IMG/VR virus record: IMGVR_UViG_2061766007_000586
Coordinates: 160,001 to 224,000 of that record
Strand: one strand, 5' to 3'
Length of the DNA: 64,000 bases
Source: a virus
Taxonomy: Duplodnaviria > Caudoviricetes
The stretch's first letter is position 1, and the number at the start of each line of letters is the position of its first letter. Below the pieces are notes generated by a model. The model was not told the origin of the DNA. It saw only the letters and a program-made list of their open reading frames with translations, and searched no databases. Below, in pieces: positions 23,031 through 28,760 of the stretch. The translations under genes and the position numbers were made by a program.

Positions 23031-24416
23031 TTAATCTATTAATCCACGTTTTTTGTAATTTTGATTTGCATTATGATCTGCAATTTTTTTGATTATACGA
23101 TTTGATTGTGTATATCCAATCGATTTTGCACGTTGAAGAATAGCAGCTTGCGTTTTACGAAGCCATTCATAAAATGGATTATCTTTTGATATTTCACCGC
23201 TTTTTATACGTTTTATAAATTCTATAGCTGCTTTATCTGCCATTTTTTCCATCGGATGTTCGTCATGCTCTTTCATGCTTGTCATATTAGCTGTGTTAAA
23301 TACTTTTCCATGCATTGCTTGTGACACATGCATAAATTCATGAATTATAGTGGCAGCAATTTCATTAAGATTTTTATTAAAAAATTCATTTAAATTAACG
23401 CTACAAAGATAACCGACACCTTTTTTTCCACCAGCAGTCCCACTATGATTAGAGTATGAATCTGAAAAAACACACAATCTATTTACTCTTAAATCTCCAT
23501 GACCTTTTGTATTATTCCAAAATTGTTGCATAAAATTTGCTAAATATTTTCTAACATTTTGAGGAATGTCATAGAAATATAAGAATCCTTTTTCGTTTTC
23601 TTTTCCTGTTAAAGATACTTGTTCGGTATCTAATGTTTTTCTTGCATACTTAAACCATATATTAATAGCATGTTGTCTTTTTTGCACATCAGTTAATAGA
23701 CTACGAATTTCTTTTTCAAATTCAGCAGCATTTGTAACTTGTGTGAATGGTATTGTTTCATTAATATTTTTACTTAATTCTGCATAAAATTTGTTATATG
23801 AATTCTGGAAAGATCCAGCTTTATTTGTGAGAATTTCTTTAATTTTTGATTTACATGTATTGAGTACTTGAATTTCAGCTTCTGCTGATGTAATAGCATT
23901 TTTAAATTCATTAGATACAAAAAATCCAAATGGTGGATCTGGTGGTTCAGAAGGAGCTTTAGATATAGATTGTTGAACTTCTGTGACGGTTTCGTATTTT
24001 TTTACATACTTATTAGTTATTGCTTCTAATGAATCACTTGAAGGTTTCCTTTTTAGTATCCAACTTCCTGATGTTGTTAATTCTTTAAGCCAATTTGTCA
24101 TTAAGCTTGCTCTTGCTTTAAAAGCTTTATTTGCATTTCTTTTCGTTTTAAATTTACGAAAGATTGTTGGAATACCGTTTTTAAGAATCGTTAATATATA
24201 TTTACTTGCAACAATAGCTTTATTGATCAAATCAATAATAAAATCTTTTGCTTTCTGTGTAAATTGTTTTAAATCTTCTACAGAACACTCAATATTTGAA
24301 TATAATCTATTACAAAGATCAGCAACGCAATCTAATCTAATCATTAAACTATCTAGATAAACTAAATCCTCATCTACATAAATAGATTGGTTATTAATTG
24401 CATTTAAATCTAACAT
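23031..24416 (-). CDS. Putative internal head protein with a C-terminal zincin (HExxH) domain
   Basis: CSVED processing-like site, KDFIIDLINKAI helix, TIIHEFMHVSQ ... PMEKMA. Confidence 0.6.
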   Translation of the reverse strand: MLDLNAINNQSIYVDEDLVYLDSLMIRLDCVADLCNRLYSNIECSVEDLKQFTQKAKDFIIDLINKAIVASKYILTILKNGIPTIFRKFKTKRNANKAFKARASLMTNWLKELTTSGSWILKRKPSSDSLEAITNKYVKKYETVTEVQQSISKAPSEPPDPPFGFFVSNEFKNAITSAEAEIQVLNTCKSKIKEILTNKAGSFQNSYNKFYAELSKNINETIPFTQVTNAAEFEKEIRSLLTDVQKRQHAINIWFKYARKTLDTEQVSLTGKENEKGFLYFYDIPQNVRKYLANFMQQFWNNTKGHGDLRVNRLCVFSDSYSNHSGTAGGKKGVGYLCSVNLNEFFNKNLNEIAATIIHEFMHVSQAMHGKVFNTANMTSMKEHDEHPMEKMADKAAIEFIKRIKSGEISKDNPFYEWLRKTQAAILQRAKSIGYTQSNRIIKKIADHNANQNYKKRGLID

Positions 24417-24982: not shown

Positions 24983-25092
24983 ATTTTTAAGTTCCTTATT
25001 ATAATTATAGTAAAAGAAGTAGCATAAAATAATTGAAGCCAATGAAATAAAAAAGAAGCGTACGGATTATATCCGTACGCTCCTGATATTAA

Positions 25093-25449
25093 TTATGCTA
25101 CAACCGATCTATCATTACCAACGTAATGAGCAAATCGATTGAAGAATTTTTTGCAGGCATTCTGCCTAGCTTGTGTTTTATATTTTCCGTAGCCAACGAA
25201 TACAAGTCCACCGATGCGAATTGTACATTTTGATTTTGATGTAGTGAATCGCATGTAATCGTTTATATTCTTACCAAACATTTTCTGGAATAGGATCTCA
25301 CTCATGATTACTGTAGCTGATTCGCAGCTGATTGGTTCAGGAGCAAGTTCATTAGCTGCTTGAATTGCATGATCAAAATCGTGTGCAGATATTTTAGCAG
25401 CTTTTTCAATTCCTTTTTCAATGCATGGTGAATATATACATGTATTCAT
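25093..25449 (-). CDS. Protein with a dsRNA-binding (dsRBD)-like C-terminus
   Basis: KCTIRIGGLVFVGYGKYKTQARQNACKK matches the dsRBD pattern GxGxSKKxAxQxAA. Confidence 0.55.
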   Translation of the reverse strand: MNTCIYSPCIEKGIEKAAKISAHDFDHAIQAANELAPEPISCESATVIMSEILFQKMFGKNINDYMRFTTSKSKCTIRIGGLVFVGYGKYKTQARQNACKKFFNRFAHYVGNDRSVVA

Positions 25450-25700
25450 TCGTAGAATTCCTTTCGAAGCTTTTTGAGTATTTGAAACTGGTATTGCCTG
25501 ACACTTTCTATAGTAGCAACTTTCAAACGCAAAGCTTCTTTTGTCTCACGTAATGAATAATATTTACCATAGAATCCGAATCTCAGTTTAATCAGTTCTT
25601 GTTCGACTAACGGTAGCTTATCAAGCAATTCGAACATACGTTCATAATCATCTGACTTACATACCAACTCCATTCCATCGATGATGAAATCGTCTGACAT
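25446..25700 (-). CDS. Stand-alone sigma-70 region 4-like HTH protein
   Basis: LDKLPLVEQELIKLRFGF...SLRE...ESVRQYQFQILKKLRK. Confidence 0.75.
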   Translation of the reverse strand: MSDDFIIDGMELVCKSDDYERMFELLDKLPLVEQELIKLRFGFYGKYYSLRETKEALRLKVATIESVRQYQFQILKKLRKEFYE

Positions 25701-25772
25701 AATTTGCTCCTTGTTTTGTCAGAGAAAAGAGATATGACATTTTTACATGTCATATCTCTTGTGTTAGTATGA

Positions 25773-26441
25773 TTAGACAGCCGTCCAAGGACGCCAGCTA
25801 TTGTAATCTTTGTCAGTGAACTGTGAAGACAGAACAACAAAACTGTTCCGAATCTTCTGAACCAACTGTGCATATGCCGTTCCGTTCACGTCAAGCTGAT
25901 TTCTGAAATCAACATTGTGATTCTGACTGACATGAGAATTCAGTGACTTCCCATAATTGATAATTGAGCATCCTTTGCACGGAAGTAAAGAAGATCCGTC
26001 TCCGATTCCAACATCTTCGAGTTTCGAACCGCCCTTCATGCGAATCTTGGTATCAGTGATATACATATTCTTGATGGAACTACCACCATTCATACGGATC
26101 TCAGATCCGAATTCTCCGATGATATTTTCCACCGATGCTCCGTTCTGGAGAATCAGCCATCCACCACGCAGCCAAAGATTGTGAATAGAAAGCTTTTTGT
26201 TACCACCAATGATTTCGACGATAGAATTCGGTCCGATAAAGAGATCATTGATCTCGCCGCTTCTTACCTGAAGGAATGTTCTTCCTGCAAGTTCACAAAC
26301 ATTGAGACTTCCACCAAGCATGCAGATTTCTCGTTTGTCGAACACAACATGATCGAATGTTGTTCGTTTGATGACTTCTTTGTCAGTGGTGAGTACGTGG
26401 TCTTTCAGTGAAGACATCACGCGTTCGTTGGGAGTGAACAT
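25773..26441 (-). CDS. Beta-helix (AIDA-repeat-like) protein
   Basis: Repeating Gly/hydrophobic pattern (LRGGWLILQNGASVE, MNGGSSIK, MKGGSKLE). Confidence 0.55.
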   Translation of the reverse strand: MFTPNERVMSSLKDHVLTTDKEVIKRTTFDHVVFDKREICMLGGSLNVCELAGRTFLQVRSGEINDLFIGPNSIVEIIGGNKKLSIHNLWLRGGWLILQNGASVENIIGEFGSEIRMNGGSSIKNMYITDTKIRMKGGSKLEDVGIGDGSSLLPCKGCSIINYGKSLNSHVSQNHNVDFRNQLDVNGTAYAQLVQKIRNSFVVLSSQFTDKDYNSWRPWTAV

Positions 26442-26890
26442 TTTAATTCTCCTTTATATGGGGTTTGTGTTTTGAGAGTTTTACTATAAAACTCTGTATG
26501 ATGTAACGGTTTAATGTTTAATTTTGTATTAAGTAAATTTTCTGTCGTTTCTAACATTATAGATATTACAGATTTAATAAATTTTTGACGTGGGTTGTAT
26601 TTGTTAACAATATTGTCACCAATTTGTATTTTAGGGTTAAGTTTTCTTGCATCTTTAATCCAAACTTGATCAGAGTTATTTGGTTTTGGTATAAAGTTTA
26701 CAACTTTCTGATTGGAATAGAATCTCATGTCACCAGTTTTTGGATCAATTGTGACATCACAGATTTTTCCATCTTTTAATTGGTTAATTAAATCTTTTCT
26801 GTAAATATCAATTAACTCTTTACGAGTATATTTCCAGAGTAAACTGATTTCAATGATATCAAGCATCTTGATAAGATTCGGATTTTCCAT
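26417..26890 (-). CDS. NusA N-terminal domain-like protein
   Basis: DVTIDPKTGDMRFY..KVV and IKDARKLNPKIQIGDNI are typical of NusA-NTD; no S1 or KH domains. Confidence 0.7.
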   Translation of the reverse strand: MENPNLIKMLDIIEISLLWKYTRKELIDIYRKDLINQLKDGKICDVTIDPKTGDMRFYSNQKVVNFIPKPNNSDQVWIKDARKLNPKIQIGDNIVNKYNPRQKFIKSVISIMLETTENLLNTKLNIKPLHHTEFYSKTLKTQTPYKGELKCSLPTNA

Positions 26891-26957
26891 AATGATTCTC
26901 CTTATGCTATGAGGGTTTCATGTTAGTTATATATAAATAAGATAAGGATGATTTATT

Positions 26958-27851
26958 ATGATTCATATATGCTTAGCGACAGATTTCAATAATGTTCAGC
27001 TGTGTTGTGAATGTATTCATGATACCATTATGACAAAAAATCCAGATACAGAAATTACGTTTTATGTATTATTGGATAGTGTAAAAAATTCGCAGATATT
27101 TGATCGATTTAATGAATTAGATCAAATTAAAGTTATACCTATTTTTTCTAGTTCATATCAACTTATTACAAAGGGTGCAAAAATAAACGGTATAGCATAT
27201 TGGCTTACAGCAACCACATATCTACGTTACATAATTCCTTCTTTACCGGAATTACAAGATGTTGATAGAGTTCTTTATCTTGATACTGATATGTTAGCTT
27301 TAAGGGATTTGTCAAATATTTATAATTATGATTTGCATGATAATTTGATTGGTGGTGTAAAAAATTCAACTTATATCAGACACTCTTATAAAGGAAAACT
27401 TTCTTTTGTAGGATCTCTAGAAGGCCGTGTTATTAATGCTGGTGTAATTTTAATGGATTTAAATAAATTGAGAGAATTTGACTTTACAAAAAAATGTATT
27501 GATTTTACCAGAGAATGTGGTATGGATGATGAAATAGTTGTCAATCAAATTTGTAAAAATAAAATACAGTTTATGGATCCTACTATGAACATTCCGTACA
27601 CAATGATTGTTTATAGACATAAAAATATGAACGATATCGATTGCTGGAATGCTTTTCATAATACTTCGTTTACATCTATTAATGATTTGGTGTGTTCTAG
27701 TTATTTATTACACTTTATAACTGATAAAAAAGCACAGTTAAATTTTCCAAAATTAAAAGCAATACATGAATCAAGATATCAAAGATTTAAAAATTTTGTT
27801 GAAACTGGAATTATCCAGAAAGAAGACATTCTTCCTCTTGTAACTTTATAA
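26958..27851 (+). CDS. Glycosyltransferase family 8
   Basis: IHICLATD, TYLRYIIP, RVLYLDTD (DxD), INAGVILMDL and LLHF motifs. Confidence 0.9.
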   Translation: MIHICLATDFNNVQLCCECIHDTIMTKNPDTEITFYVLLDSVKNSQIFDRFNELDQIKVIPIFSSSYQLITKGAKINGIAYWLTATTYLRYIIPSLPELQDVDRVLYLDTDMLALRDLSNIYNYDLHDNLIGGVKNSTYIRHSYKGKLSFVGSLEGRVINAGVILMDLNKLREFDFTKKCIDFTRECGMDDEIVVNQICKNKIQFMDPTMNIPYTMIVYRHKNMNDIDCWNAFHNTSFTSINDLVCSSYLLHFITDKKAQLNFPKLKAIHESRYQRFKNFVETGIIQKEDILPLVTL

Positions 27852-27872
27852 TTTTAATATAAGGCAATTAAA

Positions 27873-28760
27873 ATGAGCAAAATTCCTATTTGTTATTGTA
27901 CTAGCAAATATTACATTCCTTGGTTAAAAAGATCGATTTATGATCTTATTATTCGTAAGAATCCAGATACAGAATTAGATATTTATATTCTTCTAAATCA
28001 AGCTATACCTGATCCTGATTTTGAAAAATTTAATAAACTTGATAAAGTTCATGTAACAATTAAAGAGATGGATACAGCTATCGAGTTTCCTTATCATGCC
28101 CCACATCCCATGCCTTGGCTAGGAAAATTTAGATCATTAAATATGATTATTCCAGAATTGGATATCTTTAAAGATTTTGAAAGAGTCTTATATTTGGATC
28201 TTGACATGATGGCACGTAGAGATATCACTCCTATTTATGAAACTGATATCAAAGGTGCAGCATTAGGTATGGTTAAAGATTGGTTTTACTGCAGATATGT
28301 TGATCCTAAAAGCTATTTAACAGTTAGTAATACATACCAAAACGGTGTGATTATTATGGATCTTCCTAAGTTAAGAGAAAAACATTTTTCTCAACAATGC
28401 AGAATGAAAACACGTAGTTGTGGTACTGATATTGTGATAATTAATGAAGTTGCACATGATTATATTTGTTCACTTAGTCCAACTTATCAAATTCCATATT
28501 GGGATATTATTTTGGGTAATATACCGATGAAAGATATCAAAACTTGGAATTCAATGTTTGATACTAATTTTGAATCAATGCACGATTTAATTGATCAAAG
28601 TTATTTCTTTCATTGGTGTGGTGATAAAGATTATCGTTACAATATTGTTCCAATTTGTAAAAATATTGTTGATCAAGCACAAAAGCGTTTGGATAAATTT
28701 TTACAGACAGGTGTTGTCCAAGAATGGACAGATGAAGATGAACGTATTTTTGTTTATTAA
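27873..28760 (+). CDS. Glycosyltransferase family 8 (paralog)
   Basis: RVLYLDLD, YQNGVIIMDL and FHWCGDK motifs. Confidence 0.88.
   Translation: MSKIPICYCTSKYYIPWLKRSIYDLIIRKNPDTELDIYILLNQAIPDPDFEKFNKLDKVHVTIKEMDTAIEFPYHAPHPMPWLGKFRSLNMIIPELDIFKDFERVLYLDLDMMARRDITPIYETDIKGAALGMVKDWFYCRYVDPKSYLTVSNTYQNGVIIMDLPKLREKHFSQQCRMKTRSCGTDIVIINEVAHDYICSLSPTYQIPYWDIILGNIPMKDIKTWNSMFDTNFESMHDLIDQSYFFHWCGDKDYRYNIVPICKNIVDQAQKRLDKFLQTGVVQEWTDEDERIFVY

What the first reader, a model, noticed from the sequence alone, without database searches (positions are those of the whole stretch)
25093..26933. Early gene cluster of isolated host transcription/RNA-factor domains: NusA-NTD, sigma region 4, dsRBD
Seen: behind the promoter motif at 26926-26933 lie a NusA-NTD-only protein, a beta-helix protein, a sigma-70 region-4-only protein and a dsRBD-like protein. 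A hairpin at 25728-25759 may split the cluster. Known: NusA-NTD and sigma region 4 both bind the beta-flap tip of bacterial RNA polymerase, and phiKZ-like phages transcribe with their own RNA polymerases. Inference: these are dominant-negative mimics that jam or reprogram host RNA polymerase, with the dsRBD possibly antagonising RNase III or dsRNA sensing.
Basis: partly seen in the sequence, partly recalled or inferred. Interest (0 to 1): 0.72.

Follow-up and report, generated by a model that had tools for sequence, protein, structure and literature searches.

The report
Jumbo phage's truncated host transcription factors
A giant cattle-rumen phage that makes its own RNA polymerases carries, behind a predicted early promoter, cut-down copies of two host transcription factors (the NusA N-terminal domain, which lacks its pausing residues and occurs in only a few strains, and sigma region 4) plus a probable double-stranded-RNA-binding domain; they may be decoys that disturb host transcription, but no binding has been shown.

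Summary
The four genes, the promoter motif and the hairpin are real. The genome is a 318.6-kb phiKZ-like rumen phage.

NusA-like (157 aa): passes Pfam NusA_N and has no S1/KH domains. It keeps the head that contacts the alpha-CTD, but helix H3, with the pause residues R104/K111, is replaced and the flap-pocket helices are the least conserved part. I found no other stand-alone copy.

New here: the NusA-like gene and a 35%-identical beta-helix allele form a swapped cassette (26900-25760). Eleven sister contigs join the same promoter or leader directly to another beta-helix allele, without NusA.

Sigma-4-like (84 aa) is conserved in all sister contigs. It is closest to Lentisphaeria/PVC sigma factors among the groups sampled, has an altered recognition helix and no region-2 partner. 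The dsRBD call is plausible but weak.

Best reading (0.45): early decoys acting on host RNA polymerase and RNA handling. Binding and expression are untested. The scan noted stand-alone sigma-4 genes in other phages before, but not a NusA-NTD.

The parts
26926..26933 (-). phiKZ-type early promoter motif TATATAAC, kept in the sister strains
   Evidence: phiKZ motif in PMC7058600
25760..26900 (-). Swappable cassette (approximate ends). Window type: NusA-like gene plus beta-helix allele A. Most sister contigs: a short leader plus beta-helix allele B. The flanks are 94-98% identical in most contigs (86% on the promoter side in three); the inside does not align at DNA level
26417..26890 (-). NusA N-terminal-domain-like protein, 157 aa. 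H1 and head kept to Pro100, H0 weakly matched, H3 motif replaced, basic 36-aa tail whose last 25 nt overlap the next gene. GC 28.7%
25773..26441 (-). Right-handed beta-helix protein, 222 aa (allele A), 34-37% identical to allele B of sister strains; function unknown
25727..25760 (-). 13-14-bp AT-rich hairpin with a weak U tail; right-hand border of the cassette swap; conserved in sister strains with a variable loop
25446..25700 (-). Stand-alone sigma-70 region-4-like protein, 84 aa. Closest to PVC/Lentisphaeria sigma factors among those sampled; 3-residue insertion before the recognition helix; polymorphic at residues 62, 64, 66
25093..25449 (-). Probable dsRBD-fold protein, 118 aa (domain about 42-110), pI 9.2; lacks the beta1-beta2 loop of RNase III dsRBDs; weak assignment
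25054..25084 (-). Intrinsic-terminator-like hairpin with U run that closes the predicted operon
   Evidence: z -6.7

Best explanation
An early transcription unit of a phiKZ-like rumen phage, probably infecting a Lentisphaeria/PVC host, supplies small host-takeover proteins built from captured host domains. Shown: ORFs, domain identities, promoter motif, terminator-like hairpin, cassette structure, residue losses. Inferred: (1) the phage's own polymerase reads the TATAT[TA]AC promoter and runs through the weak 25727-25760 hairpin; (2) the fixed sigma-4-like protein occupies the beta-flap tip of host RNA polymerase without region 2 or a canonical -35 helix, so it hinders sigma-4 docking and NusA loading; (3) the optional NusA-like protein docks on host polymerase through the NusA head (alpha-CTD face) and perhaps the flap tip, but without H3 and S1/KH it cannot stabilise pause or terminator hairpins, so it competes with host NusA; (4) the dsRBD-like protein binds RNA helices with no nuclease domain and shields them, most simply the phage's own hairpins, from RNase III. 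The phage can afford this because it does not need host polymerase.
For: Phage RNAP subunits present; phiKZ is independent of host RNAP (PMC5312081) and its nvRNAP works without alpha (PMC8287921). NusA_N above cut-off. The H3 motif is nearly invariant in the bacterial NusA rows (G, R, I, A, A, Q, A, Q at 90% or more; K or R at the K111 position in 56 of 62) yet absent in the phage protein. H3 deletion in NusA-NTD abolishes pausing but barely affects RNAP binding (PMC4357713). Head segments score 1.4-1.6 per residue against the NusA profile, and the head binds the alpha-CTD (PMC5842316). NusA-NTD and sigma-4 bind the flap mutually exclusively. Sigma-4-like and dsRBD-like show more synonymous than non-synonymous polymorphisms, 13/4 and 19/7. 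No sigma region 2 or RNase III domain found in the genome.
Against: No binding or expression data. The flap pocket is built by helices alpha1, alpha2 and alpha4, the least conserved parts here: H0 does not align in register, H1 scores 0.68 and H3 0.1. The protein is basic (pI 9.3) where host NusA-NTDs are acidic (4.7-5.7), so it may have another ligand. The NusA-like gene is missing from most sister contigs and has no other homologue, so it is dispensable and selection on it cannot be measured. One allele of the sigma-4-like protein keeps a recognition helix close to that of PVC alternative sigmas, which fits DNA binding. The dsRBD call is weak. The host is inferred, not shown.
Confidence: 0.45

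Rival explanations
1. Unrelated cargo in a hypervariable early locus. The sigma-4-like protein is a DNA-binding helix-turn-helix regulator, the dsRBD-like protein chaperones the phage's own structured RNAs, and the NusA-like protein has been repurposed as a basic nucleic-acid binder. None targets host polymerase.
For: The cassette swap shows the four genes are not an obligate unit. Allele P0014 has a recognition helix like PVC alternative sigmas, and 3 of 4 non-synonymous changes lie at residues 62-66. The NusA-like protein is basic. The genome has 65 intergenic hairpins, and earlier scan notes report several large structured RNAs (not checked by me).
Against: The majority allele has lost two arginines of the recognition helix and carries a 3-residue insertion in the turn, which suits DNA binding poorly. 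The NusA head, a protein-contact surface, is what has been kept.
Confidence: 0.25
2. Decoys for third parties rather than polymerase inhibitors. The fragments titrate proteins that bind host NusA or sigma-4, such as anti-sigma factors, activators, antiterminators of resident prophages, or defence systems that monitor the transcription machinery.
For: Presence/absence polymorphism behind an early promoter, next to other hypervariable genes, is what counter-defence loci tend to show (my own knowledge). Lambda Q binds NusA (PMC7171158, title).
Against: No partner identified. No PADLOC match for any of the four proteins. The sigma-4-like gene is nearly invariant (95-99%), unlike an arms-race gene.
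Confidence: 0.15
3. Accessory factors of the phage's own RNA polymerases, tuning pausing, termination or promoter choice.
For: The phiKZ nvRNAP has a flap-like region (PMC8287921), and the genome is rich in hairpins.
Against: phiKZ nvRNAP lacks alpha, and gp68 already fills the sigma-4 site. None of the four genes has a PHROG at E below 0.01, so they are not phiKZ core genes. The NusA-like gene is optional.
Confidence: 0.08
4. The NusA-like ORF is a decaying, functionless captured fragment.
For: Singleton, minority allele, tail reading through the next gene's leader, H3 lost.
Against: The frame is intact with a good ribosome-binding site directly behind the promoter. It is identical in two samples while the rest of the contig differs at three sites. 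It is only 19-28% identical to host NusA and has phage-like GC3 of 24%, which indicates long residence without frameshifts.
Confidence: 0.07

Closest known systems
Bacterial NusA N-terminal domain (Pfam PF08529; PDB 1HH2, 2MT4, 6FLQ)
   Same: Collinear with the start of NusA to Pro100; beta1-beta2 hairpin and head conserved; passes the Pfam cut-off.
   Different: Stand-alone and phage-encoded; no S1/KH/AR domains; H3 motif with R104/K111 replaced; basic instead of acidic; 19-28% identity.
Region 4 of sigma-70 factors (PF04545), nearest: PVC/Lentisphaeria sigma factors
   Same: Complete domain 4 with the conserved RFG turn and C-terminal helix; up to 42-44% identity; sits in a supported PVC clade.
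   Different: No regions 1-3; 3-residue insertion before the recognition helix; two recognition-helix arginines lost in the majority allele; long branch.
Phage regulators of host RNA polymerase (T4 AsiA, SPO1 Gp33, Xp10 P7, P23-45 gp39; PMC13401047, PMC5312081)
   Same: Small, predicted early phage proteins proposed to act near the flap, sigma-4 and RNA exit channel.
   Different: Those are not, to my knowledge, captured copies of the host factor; these are homologues of the host's own factors, in a phage with its own RNAPs.
dsRBD of RNase III (PF00035) and stand-alone viral dsRBDs such as poxvirus E3
   Same: Predicted alpha-beta-beta-beta-alpha order, basic, partial match in beta3-alpha2 and after alpha1.
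   Different: Below every HMM threshold; beta1-beta2 loop missing; extra N-terminal helices; no nuclease domain found in the genome.
Stand-alone sigma-4 and alpha-CTD genes noted in other phages by this scan (e1-5379409, e1-5379392, e1-811961, e1-5409608, e1-5353293)
   Same: Free copies of polymerase-associated domains in phages, untested.
   Different: None of those returned is a NusA-NTD; here two such domains share one predicted operon. Those notes are unchecked.

Membership tests
NusA | NusA_N domain above the Pfam cut-off | tested here: met
   41.8 vs 23.8 bits
NusA | S1 and KH domains following the NTD | tested here: not met
   157-aa ORF with only NusA_N
NusA | H3 motif with R104 and K111 (pause enhancement) | tested here: not met
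   Homology ends at Pro100; K111 equivalent absent in either register, R104 at best a shifted lysine
NusA | Binds the beta-flap tip helix or alpha-CTD | not testable with these tools
NusA | NusA-NTD fold in a structure model | tested here: inconclusive
   Single-sequence model pLDDT 45, no informative match
Sigma-70 factor | Region 2 (core binding, -10 melting) | tested here: not met
   84-aa protein; no PF04542 match in the genome
Sigma-70 region 4 domain | PF04545 above cut-off | tested here: inconclusive
   22.4 vs 24.1 bits in the window; 25.9 in allele P0014
Sigma-70 region 4 domain | Canonical helix-turn-helix spacing and -35 recognition residues | tested here: not met
   3-residue insertion; positions equivalent to E. 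coli R584 and R586 (numbering from my own knowledge) are Ile and Ser
dsRBD (PF00035) | Pfam match above cut-off | tested here: not met
   No hit
dsRBD (PF00035) | [quoted passage not shown] | tested here: inconclusive
   Order present in a pLDDT 46 model; Foldseek best E 0.14; VIA best Z 4.2, not a dsRBD; feature score 0.90
dsRBD (PF00035) | Binds double-stranded RNA | not testable with these tools
   Needs a binding assay
phiKZ-like jumbo phage | Own multisubunit RNA polymerase genes and phiKZ-type terminase | tested here: met
   phrog_3295/3015, 2986, 2987, 2943; terminase 35% to Erwinia phages RAY and Ea35-70
Chimalliviridae (nucleus-forming) | Chimallin gene | tested here: inconclusive
   The 563-aa candidate beside an RNAP subunit gene gave no match; not searched with a chimallin query

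The most novel reading that the evidence does not exclude
A polymerase-independent jumbo phage attacks host transcription with the host's own parts: a fixed free sigma-4 domain that blocks the flap at initiation and an exchangeable, pause-dead NusA-NTD that displaces NusA during elongation and termination. The latter would be the first phage-encoded NusA derivative and a natural dominant-negative NusA.
Probability: 0.25. Interest if true: 0.8.

Novelty: new variant of a known kind. Interest (0 to 1): 0.56.

Why it matters
phiKZ-like phages do not need host RNA polymerase, and the factors by which they act on it are largely unidentified; only co-sedimenting candidates are reported (PMC10914614). 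These two small proteins make the question directly testable with E. coli or B. subtilis polymerase, because the flap-tip helix is strongly conserved. The NusA-like protein resembles the laboratory H3-deletion mutant that binds but cannot pause, so it would also be a probe of NusA function. I found no phage-encoded stand-alone NusA-NTD in 50,697 phage records or in the literature searches. The limits are that it is a singleton, optional, from an uncultured phage, and without binding data.

Tried and rejected
Homologues of the NusA-like protein: none in IMG/VR, JGI metagenomes, the 5.8-billion protein set or GenBank phages. The two hits in the 1.8-billion set (P0002, P0003) are Bartonella trimeric adhesins whose repeats add up to a score, so they were rejected as artefacts. 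The longer-protein search gave only an Omnitrophica NusA at E 0.5, too weak to name a donor; profile scores for PVC (34.5) and Clostridia (30.5) hardly differ. NusA hits in the phage collection (19 records): the two inspected are full-length NusA of 420 and 493 aa and three others are annotated as NusA; the rest were not inspected.

Both AlphaFold jobs were single-sequence and poor, and the fold searches were uninformative.

Bipartite sigma (free region 2) and split RNase III: not found in the genome. Sigma-70-type promoters are at chance level, 13 against 13.3. Pairwise BLAST of the dsRBD-like protein to its best-looking RNase III dsRBD gave no alignment. The beta-helix has no close host homologue and no further family. 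The intended Bacteroidota control turned out to share a genome with the Clostridia sample and so is evidently Bacillota; Bacteroidota, Fibrobacterota and Spirochaetota remain unsampled. Whole sister genomes could not be searched for a NusA-like gene elsewhere.

Full report
Context. The window lies in a single 318,604-bp virus record. An identical stretch occurs in run SRR094437, which I recall as a cow-rumen metagenome. The genome encodes phiKZ-type RNA polymerase subunits and a terminase 35% identical to Erwinia phages RAY and Ea35-70. I could not confirm chimallin. phiKZ develops without host RNAP (PMC5312081).

Observation. The four ORFs exist. The 157-aa protein passes Pfam NusA_N at 41.8 bits. 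The 84-aa protein is a sigma region 4 just under the cut-off, and a sister allele passes it. The 222-aa protein models as a right-handed beta-helix. The 118-aa protein has no HMM hit; language-model features, secondary-structure order and a custom RNase III dsRBD profile each point weakly to a dsRBD. The promoter motif belongs to a TATAT[TA]AC family with 36 of 56 sites in the 9% of the genome that is non-coding, matching the phiKZ motif. A terminator-like hairpin with a U run closes the unit at 25084-25054. The inner hairpin is stable (z -6.2) but AT-rich with a weak U tail, and no promoter motif follows it, so read-through is likely (inference).

The cluster is two modules. Sister-strain contigs, fetched through variant alleles of the two downstream genes, match the window up to 26900 and again from about 25760, but not between. 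In 11 of them the promoter or leader is joined directly to a beta-helix allele only 34-37% identical to the window's, with no NusA-like gene; three more carry that allele in part. The NusA-like cassette occurs only in the window's own sequence and one more sample (L002). Some contigs come from the same study, and they were found through variant alleles, so the ratio is not a population frequency. The sigma-4-like and dsRBD-like genes are 95-99% conserved, with synonymous to non-synonymous counts of 13/4 and 19/7, which indicates purifying selection.

NusA-like protein. It aligns with the start of bacterial NusA as far as Pro100 and then diverges. Segment scores against 62 host NusA sequences are 1.57 and 1.43 per residue for the beta hairpin and head, 0.68 for H1 and 0.1 for H3, and H0 does not find its register. 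In bacterial NusA-NTD, deleting H3 or mutating R104 or K111 abolishes pausing, and H3 deletion barely affects RNAP binding (PMC4357713). In the cryo-EM complex the flap tip enters a pocket of alpha1, alpha2 and alpha4, while the head contacts an alpha-CTD (PMC5842316). So the phage protein looks pause-dead, and its best-kept surface is the alpha-CTD face rather than the flap pocket. GC 28.7% and GC3 24%, with 19-28% identity to host NusA, argue for long residence in phages. No other stand-alone copy was found, and the literature searches returned none.

Sigma-4-like protein and host. It matches sigma factors in 59 of 61 genomes from the class of a Lentisphaerae MAG (best 33 bits, 42%), against 18 of 61 Clostridia (best 22 bits) and 11 of 61 in a further, evidently Bacillota, sample. 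A tree places it in a 97/98-supported PVC clade, but on a long branch and with rows chosen as top hits. The phage NrdD is 78-80% identical to both Clostridia and Lentisphaeria proteins. A Lentisphaeria/PVC host is therefore likely but unproven. The domain has a 3-residue insertion before the recognition helix and, in the majority allele, Ile and Ser where housekeeping sigmas have arginines. Allele P0014 differs at 62, 64 and 66 toward the helix of PVC alternative sigmas; these changes may be one recombination tract. No free region 2 was found in the genome.

Mechanism. My best reading (0.45) is early decoys on the host machinery: sigma-4-like on the flap tip, NusA-like on the alpha-CTD and possibly the flap, competing with NusA, and the dsRBD-like protein covering RNA helices. 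Domain identity, residue loss, operon signals and cassette structure are shown; targets and effects are inferred. The rivals are unrelated cargo with a DNA-binding sigma-4 (0.25), decoys for third-party or defence proteins (0.15), factors for the phage's own RNAPs (0.08, since nvRNAP lacks alpha and gp68 fills the sigma-4 site), and decay (0.07). The beta-helix has no assignable role.

Comparison and verdict. These proteins are not members of the NusA or sigma-70 families, since defining domains are missing, but they are homologues of their domains. They would work like known phage regulators of host RNAP (AsiA, Gp33, P7), differing in being captured host parts. Earlier scan notes report free sigma-4 and alpha-CTD genes in other phages (unchecked), so that component is recurrent; the pause-dead NusA-NTD on a swappable cassette is the new element. 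Binding and expression could not be tested. Novelty: new variant of a known kind. Interest 0.56.

Noticed in passing
window 23031-24416 (-); L016 5288-6721 and 6763-8148: A 461-aa protein with an HExxH motif (weak SprT-like hit) is hypervariable between sister strains, 40% identical to one L016 allele; L016 and L018 carry two genes of this size in tandem at the locus.
   Followed up: partly
window 26958-28760 (+): Two tandem family-8 glycosyltransferases are transcribed divergently from the cluster, GC 27.5% in the first; the promoter-side flank is only 86% identical in L016, L018 and L021.
   Followed up: no
G000 8264 (-), outside the window: An early promoter shares about 20 nt of near-identical context with the one at 26933, a possible recombination anchor for cassette exchange.
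   Followed up: no
window 26417-26480 (-): The tail of the NusA-like ORF reads through a leader-like stretch with the next gene's ribosome-binding site and overlaps that gene by 25 nt; the tail may be non-functional read-through.
   Followed up: partly
L005 13316-15007 (-), G000 85315-87006: A 563-aa gene with its own early promoter sits beside an RNAP subunit gene, where I recall chimallin lies in phiKZ, but has no detectable homologue.
   Followed up: partly
L005 1737-4133 (-): The anaerobic ribonucleotide reductase-like protein is 78-80% identical to proteins of gut Clostridia and Lentisphaeria, suggesting recent exchange.
   Followed up: partly
L013 4936-5016: Strains without the NusA-like gene carry an 80-nt leader with a short inverted repeat between promoter and beta-helix gene.
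   Followed up: no
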